Part shown: positions 6,080 to 48,510 of the stretch, one piece after another
Layout: each line of letters begins with the position of its first letter
Position numbering within the stretch: the stretch's first letter is position 1
From: Candidatus Sodaliphilus aphodohippi
Lineage (GTDB): Bacteria > Bacteroidota > Bacteroidia > Bacteroidales > Muribaculaceae
DNA length: 56,050 nt
Direction: 5' to 3'
NCBI GenBank assembly: GCA_018065665.1
Contig: JAGHSV010000034.1
Coordinates: 1 to 56,050 of the forward strand
Program-made: the position numbers and the translations under genes
Notes under the pieces: model-generated
Databases searched by the model: none
Told to the model about the DNA's origin: nothing
What the model saw: only the letters and a program-made list of their open reading frames with translations

Positions 6080-7708
6080 CTATATTATTTGGTCTATAAA
6101 ATCTTTCTTCTCAATAATTTTGCCAATAGAATCGGTGATGCTCCATTGAGTAATGTTACGGACTTCAGAAGATATACTTATACCACACTTGGTCACCTTG
6201 CGTCCGTCAGCCTCGTAAGGTATGGCATACCCTTTGCTGTCAATCTGTGCAAGGGCATTCTCTACAGTATCGTCAACTTTCAACTCCAGTACAAAGATGT
6301 CCGTCTTGGTCTTGATTACCACATCGGCACGGCCGTGAATGCTCTTGACTTCGGTATCAACCGTTGAATTGAGCATGGAGAATGCCATGTAGAGTAATAG
6401 TTGATAGAATGACTCACGGTGCTCCTTATCTTCCCACTCTTCTTTGGTTATAACATCGTATGGTATCTTGGCAATATAGGAGCGAAGAGCCGTGAGGGCT
6501 TCAGAAAGATTGCTCTTGAATATGGCTCTTGCCATTGCTGCAACCACGCTATTATTGTCGGCTACTGTGCGCTTTAGGATAATTGGCATCAAGCAGTCTA
6601 TGAGCCCTTTCCTTACTTCATTATTGGGAATCTTCAATTCATAACGATGAGTAAAACGGTCATAGGATGCGATAGTGAGATATCCACTCTGATAGAGCAA
6701 TGGCATTGGTGAATCGGCATTCTCACATGGGACGCTAAACTCATTTTCGCTCACTTCCACACCATCATAATCCAGTGCCCGGGTGATTGGGAAACGTGAA
6801 AGATGCTTGAGCAATGAGCCTGAGGTCGCATTGTCAAACCAATAGTGAGTTGCGTCATTGTCATTAAGTGCATTCAGCAAACTGTATGGAGCATATACAT
6901 CTTTACTCTTTTTAGAAAAATGGTAGCCGTCATAGTTTTTCTTCAATAACGCATACGCTTCATCAACGGTTATCTCCAAGTTCTGAGCATATTCCTCCAC
7001 ACAAGGGCGCAAGGTGGTGTCCAGTTCCTCCTGCGTGATGCCACAGATAACAGAATAATCATCAAGCATCGAGATTTGCTTCAAATTATTCAGCTCAGAG
7101 AAAATGCTGAGTTGTGAAAACTTGGTGACACCGGTAATAAAGACAAAGCGCAGATATTCGCCTTCATCCTTAAGCACTTGATAAAACTCTCGAAGCAAAG
7201 AACGCATAGCTTCAAGTTGTTCGGCTTTACCAAGCAATCTCATGATTGGCGAATCATATTCATCAAGAATGATAACCGCCTTTTCGCCTGTCTGTTCGTA
7301 AGCATTGTGAATCAAACGACGGAATCTTGCTCCAGGTGTTTTGTCTGCCTCGTTTCTGCTATACCCTGATTCGTAATCACCAATGAATGCTTCCAACTTA
7401 GACTTGGCATCAGGAATACTACAGTCCTTTAGGCCGCTCAATATAAAATGGAACACCGGGTACTTTTTCCACTGCTTCTCCAACTCCATCACCTTCAGCC
7501 CTTCAAACAATTCCTTCTGCCCATTAAAATATGCCTTAAAAGTATTACAGAGCAGAGATTTTCCAAATCTACGAGGACGAGCCAGAAAAACATAATTATA
7601 TTTGTCGGCAAGATCATACATCATGTCGGTCTTGTCAACATACACTTTGCCTTGCTCCCTTATTTTCTGGAACTGGTCAGTATCTACCGGGTATCTGAAT
7701 TTACTCAT
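6080..7708 (-). CDS. AAA-family ATPase with C-terminal PD-(D/E)XK nuclease domain
   Basis: YVDKT, Walker A RPRRFGKS, Walker B IILDEYD, C-terminal GRADVV...ELK...ALAQI..KGY; AT-richer than flanks. Confidence 0.9.
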   Translation of the reverse strand: MSKFRYPVDTDQFQKIREQGKVYVDKTDMMYDLADKYNYVFLARPRRFGKSLLCNTFKAYFNGQKELFEGLKVMELEKQWKKYPVFHFILSGLKDCSIPDAKSKLEAFIGDYESGYSRNEADKTPGARFRRLIHNAYEQTGEKAVIILDEYDSPIMRLLGKAEQLEAMRSLLREFYQVLKDEGEYLRFVFITGVTKFSQLSIFSELNNLKQISMLDDYSVICGITQEELDTTLRPCVEEYAQNLEITVDEAYALLKKNYDGYHFSKKSKDVYAPYSLLNALNDNDATHYWFDNATSGSLLKHLSRFPITRALDYDGVEVSENEFSVPCENADSPMPLLYQSGYLTIASYDRFTHRYELKIPNNEVRKGLIDCLMPIILKRTVADNNSVVAAMARAIFKSNLSEALTALRSYIAKIPYDVITKEEWEDKEHRESFYQLLLYMAFSMLNSTVDTEVKSIHGRADVVIKTKTDIFVLELKVDDTVENALAQIDSKGYAIPYEADGRKVTKCGISISSEVRNITQWSITDSIGKIIEKKDFIDQII

Positions 7709-36752: not shown

Positions 36753-37419
36753 GCCCCACGACACTATCCCGTACCCTAAAGGCACGGTAGCCATTGTATG
36801 CCCTAATCACAGCTGACGTGGCGGTGTCACGATTTGATTAAGTGTGCGTTCCCCTTGGGAACGAGAGAGGGGCAGTGCATCTGCCCCGTACGCAACTAAC
36901 GCCTTGGCGGCTCATTGCAGATAACCCGTTCCTTCGCTGACGCTCAGGAACGGGATACAGGTCTATACCCATATCGCGGCTGGATGCCGCTACCGTTCGC
37001 TTCGCCCTCAGGGCAGTTTCGCGTCAATCGGCTCACCTCACAGTTCTGCTCCATAGATGAGAATATAGCGCGGGCTGCCGTTGGTAGAAAGACGGCAGCC
37101 CGCGATAGTTTTTTTAGTTGACAGCAAAAGAGGTTGTCATGCCAGTGGCGTTGCATGTGCGCGCAAACATCCTGATGAAGTTGAGGGTCGATTGCCGCGG
37201 GCCGTTTGTTGCATGCCCTTCTTTTGTGCCAAGTTTCGGTTGAGTAAAGGTTTTTTGCATAGGCAATAAGTTTAAAAGGTTGTTACACTTATATAACGCA
37301 GATGGTGCACAAATATTTTGTGCCATAAGCAAAAAAAAAATGACCTGCAATGATATTCCTTTTGTCACCGCAACCGTCAGATGCAATCTTCGTCTTGGAT
37401 TCCCCTCGATGAGGGGTAG

Positions 37420-37464
37420 CAATAAAACATACAGGCGCCCCGGGTTGCCGGGAGCGCCTGCGTT
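37420..37464 (-). repeat. Terminator-like repeat, copy A (shared with ino1 downstream region)
   Basis: CAATAAAACATACAGGCGCCCCGGGTTGCCGGGAGCGCCTGCGTT, near-identical to 38466-38511 and 40333-40376. Confidence 0.9.
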
Positions 37465-37500
37465 GGCTTTGCCGTCAAATGTATTCTCCTCTTGGCGGTA

Positions 37501-38211
37501 TTATTTCTTGATGGTATTGGCAATGAGAGTGTTGCCGTTTTCAAGTTCTATCTCGATTTCCAGATAATTGCCTGTGTTCACTATGTCTTTCTTGATGTCG
37601 GGGAAGATGAAGTGGGCCCGAGTAAACACCATGGGCTTGTAGGCAAGGTACTGGCTTATGGTTAAATCCAACGGCATGGTTCCAACAACGTTCCCCTGTG
37701 AATTGATGATGACAGAATGGAATTTTTCGTCTCCCAGATAGGAATTGTCCTTATAGTGGAAACGTGCTTTGTCGGTAAGGTCCATGACGAAATTCTTGTC
37801 CTTATCATACATTTTAATCGTAATAGACTTGCACACTTTTGTTGTATAATCAAAATGTATAGGTACGTTGCCGTTATACTCCCCATTGGGGTCCAGGAAT
37901 GTGCTCAACTGTTGCTCAATGCCCTTGTTAGCAGCGAGGTAGTAGGGCTGATACAGGTCAATCCAGAGGTCCTTGTGTAGTTTGCTTACTACGAGTACAA
38001 TCATATCCAGGCAATCGGCATTAATTTCGCCTTCAGCGTAGGTGTTTGCTGCAGTGCGAACACTGTCGGCGGGGCAATGTTGAAATAGGAGATAACAACC
38101 CTTGTCACCAATAACAAATTCATTGTCATCATTGTCACATGAAGTGAAAGAAAGGGAGGCAATCGCGCATAGCGACAGACATCCAAGATACTTAATGAAA
38201 GATTTTAGCAT
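37501..38211 (-). CDS. Hypothetical lipoprotein
   Basis: Lipobox FTSC followed by acidic DNDDNE, typical of Bacteroidetes surface lipoproteins; own TACCTTTG element at 38308-38315; AT-rich. Confidence 0.75.
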   Translation of the reverse strand: MLKSFIKYLGCLSLCAIASLSFTSCDNDDNEFVIGDKGCYLLFQHCPADSVRTAANTYAEGEINADCLDMIVLVVSKLHKDLWIDLYQPYYLAANKGIEQQLSTFLDPNGEYNGNVPIHFDYTTKVCKSITIKMYDKDKNFVMDLTDKARFHYKDNSYLGDEKFHSVIINSQGNVVGTMPLDLTISQYLAYKPMVFTRAHFIFPDIKKDIVNTGNYLEIEIELENGNTLIANTIKK

Positions 38212-38466
38212 AGTTGTAAATTTTTATTCAAAAAGGATGGCACATTTTGATACATTGATAAGTTACTTGTTTGTGCAGCATACTGCCATCTTGCAGTTGC
38301 ACAATCGCAAAGGTATTACACTTTTTTGAACAAAACAAATATTCCCCCCAAAAAAACGACATAAATTTTGAGGGGGGGGTAAAAAGTTATATTTCAAGTA
38401 GTTACAAAAGTGCAAAAAAATCTTAAAAACTGGATTGGGGTTCCAAATTTGATTTTTTGTGTGTAC

Positions 38467-38601
38467 AATAAAACATACAGGCGCCCCCGGGTTGCCGGGA
38501 GCGCCTGCGTTATGTAAGCTATTCGGAAAGTGTCGCTAGGGATTAGTCGATTTCCTCGTCGGCCTCGTAACCGCCCATCTCACGGATGGCGTTCTTCAGC
38601 A
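38467..38601 (-). repeat. Direct-repeat copy B: duplicated ino1 3' end (LKNAIREMGGYEADEEID*) plus terminator
   Basis: About 135 bp matching 40333-40466 with four differences. Confidence 0.95.
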
Positions 38602-38618
38602 CAACACACCAAAAAGCA

Positions 38619-38693
38619 TTGAAATGCGAGCGGAATCTATGATTTTTTTGCACATTCCGCTCGAAACTGAGCATTTTTTGTGAGAAATTGAAG
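38619..38693. repeat. 75-bp direct repeat R1 with internal palindrome
   Basis: Matches 40236-40311; contains CGAGCGGAAT-N17-ATTCCGCTCG. Confidence 0.92.
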
Positions 38694-38779
38694 AGCAATT
38701 GATGTAAATAACCTATCAATTGTATTAAATCTAAGCACTGTAAATCAAATGGTTAAGGGTGATATTAGTTCAAACTCGT

Positions 38780-40195
38780 CTATAATTCCTTGAATAGGTC
38801 ATCTAAGACCACTATATTTTGAATGTCATCGGAGAAACCATTCCGTTTTACCCCGTTTGCGCTAACCAGCACGTTATGAATGGCCTTGGTTGTGCCTGTT
38901 TCGTTGCGGAATACAGATTCCTTTTGCATGATGCTGTTATAGTCGCTCTCTGTCATTTCCCAAGGTTCCTTGGTATATTTCATTTCACACAGGTCTATAA
39001 CATCATCGTCACGGTCGATAAGCAAATCAATCTGTGCACCAGGTTTACTGGCGATGTGTCTCCATGAAAATATTCGGGATATTACGCCTGAAATGCCCAA
39101 AGCATGCTTTATTTGTTCGGTATGCAGAAGGCACACACGCTCAAAACTAAGACCACACCAGGTATTATAGGTATTGGACCCCAGACAGTGTGTCCAGTAT
39201 TGCGGGTCATTGTGTTTGTTCTCTTTCACAAATTCATAATAGAAAATTGTGTATGGGTCGATGAGTTGATATAGGGCATTCTTCTTTTCTTTGCCAATCA
39301 TCTTGTAACTGCGAATGAAACCGCAACTTTCCAGATTTTCCAATATTTGACCAAAACTGCCATTATCAATAAATTTCCCATTTGCAATTAATTCATTGCG
39401 CGTCAGCCCTTGACGTTTTTTTGCCAACAGACCGATGACTTTTATGTAGCATTCTGGATTCTTGAAAAGCGAAGCATAAAGTGCATCGAATTCCTCGAAT
39501 AATTCTCCTTGGGGAGTAAAAAAGTTAAGGTCAATGTTCTGAGCAAGACTCAGACCCTTTTGAATTGACTTCCAATAGAAAGGTACACCCCCCATAATCA
39601 TATATCCTTCCACAATTTGTTTTCTGGTCATGTTCACCTTGCGGCTTTTCATGTATTGCTCACATTCATTGAGCGTGAACTGCTGCAGAGGAATCTTATA
39701 ACCAATACGGTTGTGTAAACCGCCTCTGTTTTTGACTATTTTGTTGATAATCCACGATGTTGCACTGCCACAAATTATCAAAAGAATGTCTTTTCTCGCA
39801 CTTGCCCATGAGTTCCAAAAATGATCCAAAGCAGGAATAAGGCCGGAAGCATGGGTGTCCATCCAGGGCAGTTCGTCAATAAAAATGACTTTCTTTTTGT
39901 CATTTGATTGATTTATCAAGTCTTTTAGCAGTTCAAACGCGTCAAGCCAGTTTGTTGGCGTCCGTTTCACTTTCAAACCATAAGTTGCAAGCGAATTTCT
40001 CCATGCTTTCAGTTGAATCTTACGAGGAGACTTGGCGAGTCCACTATGTTGAAAAGTGAAATTGTAGTTAAATGTTTCACGAATTAGGAATGTCTTGCCA
40101 ACGCGACGCCTTCCATATACTGCCACGAACTCTGAGTATTCCGATTCAAATGCGTTTAATAAACGATTCTTTTCGTATTGTCTGCCAATCAACAT
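38780..40195 (-). CDS. AAA ATPase (archaeal-ATPase type) with C-terminal PD-(D/E)XK-like domain
   Basis: MLIGR..E, YGRRRVGKT, IFIDELPW, CGSATSW, GGVPFY, QIDLLIDR...CEMKY; AT-rich. Confidence 0.88.
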   Translation of the reverse strand: MLIGRQYEKNRLLNAFESEYSEFVAVYGRRRVGKTFLIRETFNYNFTFQHSGLAKSPRKIQLKAWRNSLATYGLKVKRTPTNWLDAFELLKDLINQSNDKKKVIFIDELPWMDTHASGLIPALDHFWNSWASARKDILLIICGSATSWIINKIVKNRGGLHNRIGYKIPLQQFTLNECEQYMKSRKVNMTRKQIVEGYMIMGGVPFYWKSIQKGLSLAQNIDLNFFTPQGELFEEFDALYASLFKNPECYIKVIGLLAKKRQGLTRNELIANGKFIDNGSFGQILENLESCGFIRSYKMIGKEKKNALYQLIDPYTIFYYEFVKENKHNDPQYWTHCLGSNTYNTWCGLSFERVCLLHTEQIKHALGISGVISRIFSWRHIASKPGAQIDLLIDRDDDVIDLCEMKYTKEPWEMTESDYNSIMQKESVFRNETGTTKAIHNVLVSANGVKRNGFSDDIQNIVVLDDLFKEL

Positions 40196-40235
40196 AATAA
40201 TAGATTTTATCTCTGTGCAAAATTATAAAAAATAG

Positions 40236-40311
40236 TTGAAATGCGAGCGGAATCTATGATTTTTTTGCACATTCCGCTCGAAACTGAGCATTTTTTTGTA
40301 AGAAATTGAAG
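40236..40311. repeat. Direct repeat R2 with internal palindrome, upstream of the ATPase promoter
   Basis: Second copy of 38619-38693; lies next to the TAATTTTG -7 element at 40218-40225 (minus strand). Confidence 0.92.
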
Positions 40312-40407
40312 GTATGGAGATGATATCTGGGTAATAAAACGTACAGGCGCCCCCGGGTTGCGGGAGCGCCTACGTTATGTAAGCTATTCGGAAAGTGTCG
40401 CTAGGGA

Positions 40408-41715
40408 TTAGTCGATTTCCTCGTCGGCCTCGTAACCGCCCATCTCGCGGATGGCGTTCTTCAGCATTACGTACTGCTGGAACAGGTGGTTAACGGGTAC
40501 CTCACCCTGGGTGTAGTCATGCTGCGGGCTCTTCAGGAAGAAGCTCAGGAAGCGCTGAGTGCCAACGCGGCCTGCACGTGCAGCGAGGTCCATCAACAGA
40601 CACAGGTCGAGGCAGAGGGGAGCTGCCAGGATAGAGTCACGGCAGAGGAAGTTGATCTTGATCTGCATGGGGTATCCCATCCAACCGAAGATGTCAATGT
40701 TGTCCCAACCCTCTTTGTTGTCGTTGCGGGGAGGATAGTAGTTGATGCGTACCTTGTGGTAGTAGTCGGTGTACAGGTCGGGCTGCTCGTCGGCAACGAG
40801 GATAGACTCGAGTGTAGAGAGCTTGCTGACCTCTTTTGTACGGAAGTTAGCGGGCTCGTCAAGTACAAGACCGTCGCGGTTACCAAGGATGTTGGTAGAG
40901 AACCAGCCGTTCAGACCGAGCATGCGAGTGCCGATGATGGGAGCGAAACCGCTCTTAACCAGTGTCTGGCCAGTCTTGAAGTCCTTACCGGCGATTGGCA
41001 TCTTAACCTCTTCGCAGAGTTCCCAGATAGCGGGGATGTCAACGGTAGTGTTGGGGGCACCCATGATGAAGGGAGCACCTTCGCGCAGAGCTGCGTAAGC
41101 GTAGCACATTGAGGGGGCGATGTTAGCGGTATCGTTGTCCTTCATTGCCTTCTCAAGGTCGGCCAACTTGTAGTGTACGTCCTTGTTGGGAGCTACATAA
41201 ATCTCGGTAGATGCTGCCCACAGAACAACAACTCGGTCAACGCCAGACTCTTTCTTGAAGTTGCGGATGTCCTCGCGAACCTGTTCCATCATGTCCCAGC
41301 GATCCTTGCAGGTCTTCACGTTGTCACCATCGAGGCGCTTTGCATAGTTCTTGTCAAAAGCGGCCTTGAGGGGCTTGATAGCCATGAGTTCGTCCTTAAC
41401 GGGGTTGATGTCCTTCTCTTTGAGTACCTCGGCGTTGATAGCGCTCTCGTAAGCGTTTGCGGGGTAAACGTCCCAAGCTGCGAAGACGATGTCCTTCAGG
41501 TCAGCGATGGGGGCGATGTCCTTATAGGGTAAATATTTCTTTTCGGCACCACGACCAACACGAATCTTGTCGTACTGAGTCATTGAGCCAACGGGTTTGG
41601 CGAGGCCTTTGCGGGTCATTAAAACACCTGTCATGAAAGTGGTGCTAACTGCACCGAGTCCAACAACCATAATACCGAGTTTTCCGGTAGCTGGTTTTAC
41701 GTTTGAATTTGCCAT
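40408..41715 (-). CDS. ino1: myo-inositol-1-phosphate synthase
   Basis: GLGAVSTT, VLWAASTE, GKDFKTGQT, NILGNRDG, DNKEGWD, CRDSILAAPL. Confidence 0.96.
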   Translation of the reverse strand: MANSNVKPATGKLGIMVVGLGAVSTTFMTGVLMTRKGLAKPVGSMTQYDKIRVGRGAEKKYLPYKDIAPIADLKDIVFAAWDVYPANAYESAINAEVLKEKDINPVKDELMAIKPLKAAFDKNYAKRLDGDNVKTCKDRWDMMEQVREDIRNFKKESGVDRVVVLWAASTEIYVAPNKDVHYKLADLEKAMKDNDTANIAPSMCYAYAALREGAPFIMGAPNTTVDIPAIWELCEEVKMPIAGKDFKTGQTLVKSGFAPIIGTRMLGLNGWFSTNILGNRDGLVLDEPANFRTKEVSKLSTLESILVADEQPDLYTDYYHKVRINYYPPRNDNKEGWDNIDIFGWMGYPMQIKINFLCRDSILAAPLCLDLCLLMDLAARAGRVGTQRFLSFFLKSPQHDYTQGEVPVNHLFQQYVMLKNAIREMGGYEADEEID

Positions 41716-47226: not shown

Positions 47227-48360
47227 CTATAAAACATATTCAAGATAGTTTTGGGGAGTGACAACATGGGTTTCTCCGGGGTTGTAGGCATTGATGAACG
47301 ACACGGGTAGCGTTGTTTTTGCTTTTTTCGGATTCCATTTTAACTCAAAAGCCGCGATGTGGCCGTTCGCCTCTTCGATATAGTCAATCTCTTTTTTGTC
47401 GGTCGTTCGCCAGAAGTAGGAGTTGACTGCTCGGCCGGCATAGCGATTGGCCTTGATTCTTTCGGCTATAAAGAAATTTTCCCATAATGCCCCAGTATCC
47501 TGTCTGTATTCAAGGGGGGCAAAATTCCTGATGACGGCGTTACGGATGCCGTTATCATAGAAATATATCTTTTTGCCTTTTGTGAGCTCGGTCCTGATGT
47601 TACGGTTGTAGCTGTTCAGGGCAAACACAACATAGCATTTCTCAAGCAGGTCTATATATTTCTCAACAGTTTTCCTGTCAATACCGACGGTCTTTGCCAG
47701 CTCGTTGTACGAAACCACACTTCCAACCTGCAGCGCCAGTACCACAACCAGTTTGTTCAGTACCGACGTGCGTCGCAAGCCGTCTATCTCCAGAATGTCT
47801 TTGTATAGGTAGCTATCGGCAAGTTCGGTCAGCATCTCTTGCGGTTCGTCACCCAGTAAAACTGCTGGATATGAGCCATAAATCAATCGTGATTCAAACG
47901 TTTCATTAACCCCAATCAGACCCTGGTTGTCATAGATCTCCTTTGTTGAGAGAGGAAACAGGTGCAGAGTTGATTTTCGACCCGTCAACGGTTCGTTGAT
48001 GCGATTGCGCAGTTCAAAAGCCGATGAACCGGTAACAAGAAGGGTGACATCGGGCATATTGTCAACAATAAGCTTAAGTGTCAGGCCAATGTCATTCACC
48101 CTTTGCGCCTCGTCAATAACAACCGTCTTATTAGAGCCGATGAGCAACTCCAGATTGTGCAGGTTTGTGGTCTGTACTGCGTCGCGCACTTCTTGACGGT
48201 CACAGTTAAGCCACAAAACTTTTGCATCGTCGCTGGCAAATCGGTCAATATACTGATGCAGCAGGGTGGTTTTCCCCACTTGCCTTGCTCCAATCAGCAG
48301 AAGGGCTTTCCCGGGCTTTGCCTTTTGGCTGATTGTCATTAATAAATCTCGCTGAATCAT
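47227..48360 (-). CDS. AAA ATPase with DUF4143-type C-terminal domain
   Basis: GARQVGKT, IDEAQR, TGSS, EPLTGR, YFYDNG, GALWEN, YFWRT..KEID; ATG at 48360. Confidence 0.9.
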   Translation of the reverse strand: MIQRDLLMTISQKAKPGKALLLIGARQVGKTTLLHQYIDRFASDDAKVLWLNCDRQEVRDAVQTTNLHNLELLIGSNKTVVIDEAQRVNDIGLTLKLIVDNMPDVTLLVTGSSAFELRNRINEPLTGRKSTLHLFPLSTKEIYDNQGLIGVNETFESRLIYGSYPAVLLGDEPQEMLTELADSYLYKDILEIDGLRRTSVLNKLVVVLALQVGSVVSYNELAKTVGIDRKTVEKYIDLLEKCYVVFALNSYNRNIRTELTKGKKIYFYDNGIRNAVIRNFAPLEYRQDTGALWENFFIAERIKANRYAGRAVNSYFWRTTDKKEIDYIEEANGHIAAFELKWNPKKAKTTLPVSFINAYNPGETHVVTPQNYLEYVL

Positions 48361-48444
48361 AATTGAATCAATGAATTGTTTTTCGGTGGCAAAATTAGTG
48401 CTTTTATTTTGTTTAGCAAGCAAAAAAACAAGAATAATTTGCTC

Positions 48445-48510
48445 GAATTCCCAAAAATCACCAATATTTTGGGAATATAATCCCAAAAATCATTAATATT
48501 TTGGGAATTC
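48445..48510. repeat. Two tandem palindromic units upstream of the ATPase
   Basis: TCCCAAAAATCA-NN-AATATTTTGGGAAT present twice. Confidence 0.85.

What the first reader, a model, noticed from the sequence alone, without database searches (positions are those of the whole stretch)
37420..40466. Integrase-free stepwise gene capture at the ino1 3' end
Seen: the ino1 terminator region occurs three times (A 37420-37464, B 38467-38511, C 40333-40376). Copy B extends to 38601 and duplicates the last ~19 codons of ino1. Each interval holds exactly one AT-rich gene with its own promoter (lipoprotein between A and B, ATPase between B and C). A and B share three alleles (AAAACAT, TTGCCGGG, CCTGCG) where C differs (AAAACGT, TTGCGGG, CCTACG). 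Inference: B is the original chromosomal end, and C arrived with the ATPase unit and rebuilt the ino1 C-terminus, as in att-site integration into a coding gene. No integrase or transposase lies in the window, so these look like minimal single-gene cassettes that are mobilised in trans or by homologous recombination, forming a small array.
Basis: partly seen in the sequence, partly recalled or inferred. Interest (0 to 1): 0.78.

Follow-up and report, generated by a model that had tools for sequence, protein, structure and literature searches.

The report
Genes inserted with long target duplications
Two foreign-looking genes, a lipoprotein and a candidate anti-phage ATPase-nuclease, sit just after a housekeeping gene of a gut Bacteroidales bacterium, each followed by a copy of that gene's end; this is most likely the known integrase-free "insertion with long target duplication", seen here for small defence-type genes rather than restriction enzymes.

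Summary
The three ino1-end repeats are real (B/C 135 bp, 97%; A/B 46 bp, 98%). No integrase or transposase is in the window. The ATPase is PADLOC PDC-S27.

Best reading: two separate insertions with long, variable target duplication, a type described for restriction-modification genes (PMC2853133), not att-site cassettes. Six more such inserts in this genome have unrelated 38-203 bp repeats and toxin-antitoxin, nuclease or lipoprotein cargo. A related ATPase locus has an empty site with one repeat copy. No empty allele was found at ino1 itself.

Family-wide, a spaced palindrome precedes 67 of 77 ATPase clusters, against 18 of 250 controls. It recurs after the stop in 11 of 65 and tracks the winged-helix recognition residues. 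The inserting enzymes remain inferred. This scan noted the same pattern before on other genomes.

The parts
40408..41715 (-). ino1, myo-inositol-1-phosphate synthase (435 aa), the host gene whose 3' end is the target
   Evidence: Pfam PF07994 and PF01658; found in 24 of 24 congeners
40333..40466 (-). Repeat C: working 3' end of ino1 (18 codons, stop, terminator hairpin)
40228..40311 (-). Repeat X2: spaced palindrome (9-bp half-sites, 17-bp spacer, 40244-40278) just upstream of the ATPase promoter motif; likely operator
40218..40225 (-). TAnnTTTG promoter-like motif of the ATPase (consensus recalled)
   Evidence: sequence
38780..40195 (-). PDC-S27 protein (471 aa): AAA+ ATPase, winged helix, PD-(D/E)xK nuclease with D390, E404, K406
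   Evidence: PADLOC E 6e-196; conserved columns; model pLDDT 91; fold matches
38611..38693 (-). Repeat X1: promoterless second copy of the palindrome, 86 bp after the ATPase stop and 9 bp before B
38467..38601 (-). Repeat B: non-coding copy of the ino1 3' end and terminator (135-bp target duplication of the ATPase insert)
38308..38315 (-). TAnnTTTG promoter-like motif of the lipoprotein gene (consensus recalled)
   Evidence: sequence
37501..38211 (-). Predicted lipoprotein (236 aa) of an unnamed Bacteroidota family; C-terminus 8 aa shorter than its 97% relative P0001
   Evidence: no Pfam, PADLOC or NCBIfam hit; 48 relatives; Atlas clusters 'hypothetical'
37420..37464 (-). Repeat A: copy of the terminator hairpin only (46-bp target duplication of the lipoprotein insert)

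Best explanation
Two single-gene units lie just past the ino1 terminator, each followed by a copy of the preceding host sequence (46 and 135 bp), and they most likely entered in two separate insertions with long, variable target duplication, made by host repair and recombination rather than by an integrase. Shown: the repeats, the foreign base composition, the lack of mobility genes, the same footprint at six other sites of this genome with unrelated repeats and cargo, and one empty site for a relative of the ATPase. Inferred steps: (1) a short incoming fragment carrying gene, promoter and, for the ATPase, its own palindromes is joined at one end right after the terminator and at the other 46-135 bp upstream, and the gap is filled, which copies the target; (2) such events survive because ino1 stays whole and the newcomer gains a terminator; (3) the repeats would then allow loss or amplification by homologous recombination, and strain-to-strain spread through the flanks. 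The lipoprotein probably came first, because the ATPase varies less between strains. X is likely the ATPase's own binding site for self-repression; a copy at each end of the gene may allow looping. The ATPase is a predicted, untested defence nuclease.
For: Own genome: 17 low-copy direct-repeat pairs passed the filter. Four are this locus. Seven were set aside as paralogue pairs, Rhs-like tails or a contig end (C25, C48, C64, C91, C114, C128, C218; judged by eye). Six remain: C6, 203 bp, dipeptidase 3' end, AAA_14/DUF4143 cargo; C129, 38 bp ending at a host stop, AbiEi/AbiEii; C165, 86 bp gene end plus terminator, DUF4160/DUF2442; C214, 81 bp tRNA-Val 3' part plus terminator, DUF6088/AbiEii; C163, 41 bp, DUF1016/YhcG; C8, 41 bp, two predicted lipoproteins, one a Peptidase_C10. 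Family: 18 of 71 testable ATPase clusters have a repeat of at least 30 bp on both sides, against 6 of 140 neighbouring ORFs and 25 of 934 ORFs of this genome. By eye, 7 of the 18 copy sequence other than the palindrome (host gene end, terminator or promoter region), 10 copy the palindrome and 1 is a repeat array. Empty site: L241 joins both flanks of L115 with one 58-bp copy and no ATPase; the 1,965-bp insert also carries a scrap of an unrelated gene, so its ends are imprecise. Only two PF00589 recombinases in the MAG. Size and repeat length meet the published criteria (PMC2853133). Operator: upstream palindrome in 67 of 77 clusters vs 18 of 250 control genes. Cognate copy within 20 nt of the stop in 11 of 65 clusters vs 10 of 4,141 swapped pairs. 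Paralogues in one genome carry different half-sites. Half-site similarity peaks at residues 276-290, the predicted recognition helix (pairs not independent). Order: listed contig pieces differ from the window at 13 of 4,299 ATPase letters, 31 of 2,367 lipoprotein letters and 47 of 4,121 flank letters.
Against: No empty or alternative allele was seen at ino1: four runs carry both genes, the metagenome scan found 0 matches, and no listed congener match reaches more than 12 bp into the 3' untranslated part. No step of the insertion chemistry was observed. Both duplications, and by eye C165, C214 and L079, end at or within about 10 bp of the terminator's U-run, which may mean targeting rather than chance plus selection. 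A could be an eroded longer copy. One X1 contig joins C back to B's flank, as a circle would, though its depth (7.3 vs about 4.5) fits a collapsed repeat better. The published class is defined by R and M genes, absent here. The MAG is 87% complete, so trans-acting enzymes may be missing from it.
Confidence: 0.62

Rival explanations
1. The ATPase-nuclease mobilises itself: it binds the palindromes at both ends of its gene, cuts or excises the palindrome-to-stop unit and triggers insertion with target duplication. The lipoprotein and other cargo come by a different route.
For: Near-identical ATPases in different neighbourhoods share DNA only from about the palindrome's outer edge (-82 to -163) to the stop codon. 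Cognate palindrome right after the stop in 11 of 65 clusters, in some with arms kept and spacer changed. Nuclease and ATPase motifs are conserved. Target-type duplications are enriched around the family. Double-strand breaks were proposed for the RM case (PMC2853133 discussion).
Against: Cargo without a DNA nuclease family shows the same footprint in this genome (lipoproteins, AbiE pairs, DUF4160/DUF2442). 54 of 65 clusters lack the downstream site. The tight unit borders also follow from selection keeping only promoter and gene. L115 carries a scrap of another gene outside the palindrome.
Confidence: 0.14
2. Att-site cassettes: each gene travels as a small circle with a replacement ino1 end and is integrated by a recombinase acting in trans.
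For: C keeps ino1 intact and differs from A and B. C214 duplicates a tRNA 3' part, a classic att target. The X1 contig has the junction a B x C circle would have. In L115 the upstream copy is the diverged one.
Against: A and B begin 90 bp apart, so there is no shared crossover point. The repeats of the other six inserts occur at most three times in the genome and differ in length and sequence. No integrase in any of these inserts, and two PF00589 genes in the MAG. Both genes have their own promoter-like motifs, unlike typical integron cassettes (recalled).
Confidence: 0.1
3. Local rearrangement only: the genes arrived without duplication, and later tandem duplication-deletion events or selection for terminators produced A, B and X1.
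For: Palindromes are often locally multiplied upstream of these genes (L030, L034, L206, L228). A is only the hairpin. Terminator copies are useful to an orphan gene.
Against: The L115/L241 pair shows a single-copy target at the empty site. Repeats of 95-100% identity end sharply at insert borders in eight cases in one genome.
Confidence: 0.11
4. Assembly artefact of a fragmented MAG.
For: 251 contigs; no listed contig of another run spans the whole locus.
Against: Copies differ at 1-5 positions. Other runs bridge A to the lipoprotein, X1 and X2 to the ATPase, and C into ino1, and one X1 contig links X to T on both sides.
Confidence: 0.03

Closest known systems
[quoted passage not shown] 2010, PMC2853133; passages and Discussion read; its reference 37, the original H. 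pylori report, not read)
   Same: Insert under 20 kb, flanking direct repeats over 30 bp that are unique in the genome, no other mobile element, low GC, repeats that can overlap a host gene's 3' end, single copy at the empty site (shown here for L115/L241).
   Different: Cargo is not an R-M pair but a PDC-S27 ATPase-nuclease and a lipoprotein, and elsewhere in the genome toxin-antitoxin pairs. Two events are stacked at one terminator. The ATPase brings its own pair of palindromes.
PADLOC phage-defence candidate PDC-S27 (described as ATPase fused to PD-(D/E)xK, mostly awaiting validation; PMC12988326 passages read)
   Same: Full-length HMM match (E 6e-196), same domain order, single-gene unit.
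   Different: The passages read say nothing of a cognate palindrome, of a second copy after the stop, or of target duplications. My searches for these listed no paper on them; most subscription papers and all supplements were not seen.
Integrase-driven att-site elements and integron cassettes (recalled)
   Same: The host gene's 3' end is kept intact and a displaced copy lies beyond the insert.
   Different: No integrase, no fixed core, variable repeat length, own promoters.
Minimal mobile elements of Neisseria (definition recalled; only passing mentions read in PMC1538595)
   Same: Accessory genes between core genes with no mobility genes, able to spread by homologous recombination.
   Different: Long flanking direct repeats are the defining feature here; alternative cargo at this slot was not found.
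Archaeal Orc1/Cdc6 with ORB sites, and archaeal ATPases PAB2304 and SSO1545
   Same: AAA+ plus winged-helix fold (2qen, 2fna, 1w5t, 2qby) beside inverted DNA sites; the likeness of some half-sites to ORB is recalled.
   Different: Extra C-terminal nuclease, bacterial host, 12-16% identity, no evidence of a replication role.

Membership tests
Insertion with long target duplication (PMC2853133) | Flanking direct repeat longer than 30 bp | tested here: met
   135 bp and 46 bp
Insertion with long target duplication (PMC2853133) | Insert under 20 kb with no other mobile-element gene | tested here: met
   1,731 and 1,001 bp; no integrase or transposase family among 43 ORFs
Insertion with long target duplication (PMC2853133) | Repeat not found elsewhere in the genome | tested here: met
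   the MAG is 87% complete
Insertion with long target duplication (PMC2853133) | Empty allele with one copy in a related genome | tested here: inconclusive
   Not found for ino1; found for relative L115 in L241
Insertion with long target duplication (PMC2853133) | Insert holds both R and M genes (the paper's screen) | tested here: not met
   ATPase-nuclease or lipoprotein only; so it works like the class but is not an RM member
Att-site integrative elements | Integrase in or beside the insert | tested here: not met
Att-site integrative elements | Fixed crossover core shared by events at one site | tested here: not met
   A and B start 90 bp apart
Att-site integrative elements | Excised circle | tested here: inconclusive
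   One joint 40360 to 38496 in an X1 contig at about double depth
Integron gene cassettes | attC sites and promoterless genes | tested here: not met
   No Rfam match at gathering score; promoter-like motifs present; T is a terminator hairpin
PADLOC PDC-S27 | Full-length profile match | tested here: met
   PDLC04984, residues 2-468, E 5.8e-196
PADLOC PDC-S27 | ATPase fused to PD-(D/E)xK nuclease | tested here: met
   Walker A and B, R163, D390, E404, K406 conserved; model
PADLOC PDC-S27 | Anti-phage activity | not testable with these tools
   Needs a phage challenge
Minimal mobile elements | Alternative cargo between the same conserved flanks in conspecific strains (recalled) | tested here: inconclusive
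   Four runs show the same cargo; congeners have other genes after ino1

The most novel reading that the evidence does not exclude
PDC-S27 genes are one-gene selfish elements of an undescribed kind. The winged helix reads a gene-specific palindrome placed at one or both ends of the gene, and the AAA+ / nuclease oligomer releases the palindrome-to-stop unit and makes the breaks that insert it, with long target duplication, preferentially at transcript 3' ends. Promoter-bearing passengers such as the lipoprotein and toxin-antitoxin pairs use the same integrase-free route in Bacteroidales.
Probability: 0.13. Interest if true: 0.82.

Novelty: new variant of a known kind. Interest (0 to 1): 0.42.

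Why it matters
It widens integrase-free insertion with long target duplication from restriction-modification genes to small defence-type and surface genes of gut Bacteroidales, with eight likely cases in one genome. Island finders that look for integrases would miss such inserts. It also gives a very common, untested defence-candidate family a concrete DNA site and a candidate recognition code (D277/N278 with GGAAT-type sites), which makes self-repression and self-mobility directly testable. The locus itself is one more example of a pattern that this scan has already noted in other genomes.

Tried and rejected
Empty ino1 allele: the metagenome scan with a 20-nt motif of the 3' untranslated part found 0 matches; 132 congeners are too distant (79 weaker matches not listed); only 4 of the 20 listed runs were laid, so empty alleles in the other 16 remain open. 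No RNA holder was listed; this says nothing about expression. The X1 joint 40360 to 38496 is not counted as a circle: its depth is about double, and both alternative branches are missing from that run's contigs. Rfam gave no match at gathering score for T or X. The plain downstream-palindrome test failed because terminators inflate the control (21 of 76 vs 55 of 250); it was replaced by the cognate test. Empty-site searches for L052 (only a second filled genome) and L079 (no close relative among 60) gave nothing. L242 and L243 match only the downstream flank of L115. Left out before counts: loci without a full-length gene or enough flank (84 clusters, reduced to 65-77 per test), and 3 of the 32 listed contig pieces in the strain-difference sum (the two repeat pieces and one across A). 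At least one of the 6 neighbour-control hits is the ATPase's own repeat. No complex prediction was run, since no protein-protein claim is made. The lipoprotein's function stayed unresolved.
Full report
Observation. The three copies of the ino1 end are present as described: B 38467-38601 and C 40333-40466 agree at 131 of 135 columns, A 37420-37464 and B at 45 of 46, and the sequence occurs nowhere else in the MAG. The hairpins of B and C pass the terminator scan on the minus strand, and all three fold with z-scores of -3.7 to -6.1. The inserts are 1,001 and 1,731 bp at 39-40% GC, against 53-56% for flanking genes. None of 43 window ORFs scanned matches an integrase or transposase family, and the MAG has two PF00589 genes. 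In transcription order the locus reads: ino1, T(C), 21 bp, X2, promoter motif, ATPase, 86 bp, X1, 9 bp, T(B), promoter motif, lipoprotein, T(A).

Reality and age. Contigs of four runs from four studies carry both genes; three bridge A, and no listed piece spans the whole stretch. Among 29 of the 32 listed pieces, differences from the window are 0.3% in the ATPase, 1.3% in the lipoprotein and 1.1% in the flanks. The pieces are not independent, but this suggests the ATPase is the younger insert. One X1 contig runs from X2 through T into X1. Its depth is 7.3 against about 4.5 nearby, so I read it as a collapsed repeat, not a circle. Its linked alleles suggest that two of the four B/C differences are private to this strain. 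None of 23 other ino1 loci with a readable 3' flank has a tail duplicate, the lipoprotein family was found in 0 of 132 congeners, and no listed congener match shares the untranslated part. An empty ino1 allele was not found.

The ATPase. It matches PADLOC PDC-S27 over its full length. Walker A and B, an arginine at 163 and a D390-E404-K406 nuclease motif are conserved in 52 sequences. The model is confident (pLDDT 91), and its best fold matches are two archaeal ATPases, then STAND proteins and Orc1/Cdc6. PMC12988326 (passages) describes S27 as an ATPase fused to a PD-(D/E)xK domain, with validation pending for most PDCs.

X is a family feature. From 160 loci in 84 clusters, a spaced palindrome lies upstream in 67 of 77 clusters against 18 of 250 control genes. 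The cognate palindrome recurs within 20 nt of the stop in 11 of 65 clusters against 10 of 4,141 swapped pairs; in the window it recurs about 118 nt after the stop. Paralogues in one genome have different half-sites. After removing overall identity, half-site similarity tracks residues 276-290 best, at the start of the predicted recognition helix (related sequences inflate this). The simplest reading is a self-repression operator, which is inferred, not shown. Near-identical genes at different sites share DNA only from about the palindrome edge to the stop.

T-type duplication is general. A repeat of at least 30 bp flanks the gene in 18 of 71 clusters, against 6 of 140 neighbours and 25 of 934 ORFs of this genome. 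By eye, 10 copy the palindrome, 7 copy other flanking sequence and 1 is a repeat array; L079 copies a gene end plus terminator as here. For L115, genome G212 gives the empty site: both flanks, one 58-bp copy, no ATPase. The downstream copy is identical to it, the upstream copy differs at 4 places, and the insert carries a scrap of an unrelated gene. In the window's own genome, 17 low-copy repeat pairs passed a filter. Four are this locus, seven were set aside as paralogues, Rhs-like tails or a contig end, and six are AT-rich inserts with unrelated 38-203 bp repeats. Their cargo is a DUF4143 ATPase, two AbiEii pairs, DUF4160/DUF2442, DUF1016/YhcG and two predicted lipoproteins.

Mechanism. Variable length, unrelated sequences, imprecise ends and cargo with and without nucleases point to a host repair or recombination route that joins the incoming fragment at two staggered points and copies the target between them (confidence 0.62; chemistry inferred). 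Att-site integration needs a fixed crossover, but A and B begin 90 bp apart (0.10). Self-mobilisation by the ATPase fits the unit borders and paired sites but not the other cargo (0.14). Later local duplication (0.11) and artefact (0.03) are weaker. That C arrived with the ATPase is possible, as L115 suggests, but the shared A/B alleles do not prove it, since A may have been copied from B. One point is unexplained: several duplications end at the terminator U-run (by eye).

Comparison with what is known. The footprint meets the size, repeat-length and no-mobile-gene criteria of insertion with long target duplication in PMC2853133 (passages and Discussion read) but fails its R-plus-M criterion, so it works like that class and extends it. 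Nine paper searches (listings only, apart from the three papers cited) showed no description of the PDC-S27 palindrome or of this footprint in Bacteroidales; subscription papers and supplements were not seen. Earlier notes of this scan on other genomes gave the lead to the target-duplication literature and reported the same two features; I tested the duplication, empty-site and palindrome claims here on other loci.

Verdict. The self-mobilising one-gene element reading remains open at about 0.13.

Noticed in passing
window 36883-36997: A hairpin-rich repeat of about 115 bp after the M16 peptidase gene, with roughly 28 related places in the genome; REP- or MITE-like by appearance.
   Followed up: partly
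window 37460-37510: The lipoprotein's end differs by 2 bp from contigs of runs X1 and X6 and from P0001; the longer form stops about 10 bp before repeat A.
   Followed up: partly
window 38344-38380: C-run / G-run inverted repeat upstream of the lipoprotein promoter; one similar site on contig C248.
   Followed up: partly
window 47227-48510: A PDC-S01 (AAA_14/DUF4143) ATPase with its own upstream palindrome at 48445-48510 and no flanking direct repeat.
   Followed up: partly
window 6080-7708 (-): A third ATPase-nuclease type (AAA-ATPase_like + PDDEXK_9) in the same window.
   Followed up: no
G000:C6 3564-5615 (L262): DUF4143 ATPase inserted after a dipeptidase gene with a 203-bp copy of its 3' end; same layout as B x C.
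   Followed up: yes
G000:C214 89-2141 (L270): DUF6088/AbiEii pair at tRNA-Val with an 81-bp duplication and no integrase in the insert.
   Followed up: partly
window A/B/C; G000:C165, C214; L079: By eye, several duplications end at or within about 10 bp of the terminator U-run and vary at the other end; targeting or selection not tested.
   Followed up: no
L186 2597-2713 and 4288-4383: The insert sits inside a host gene's end, so the upstream gene now has a different last few residues than the displaced copy.
   Followed up: no
L230 and L232 (G150): Two loci with identical printed flanks in one genome, each ATPase with double palindromes on both sides; part of a larger duplicated segment.
   Followed up: no
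G000:C128 4120-5844 (L266): 200-bp repeat at the start of an Rhs-core-like displaced tail (my reading of the sequence; no Pfam hit).
   Followed up: no
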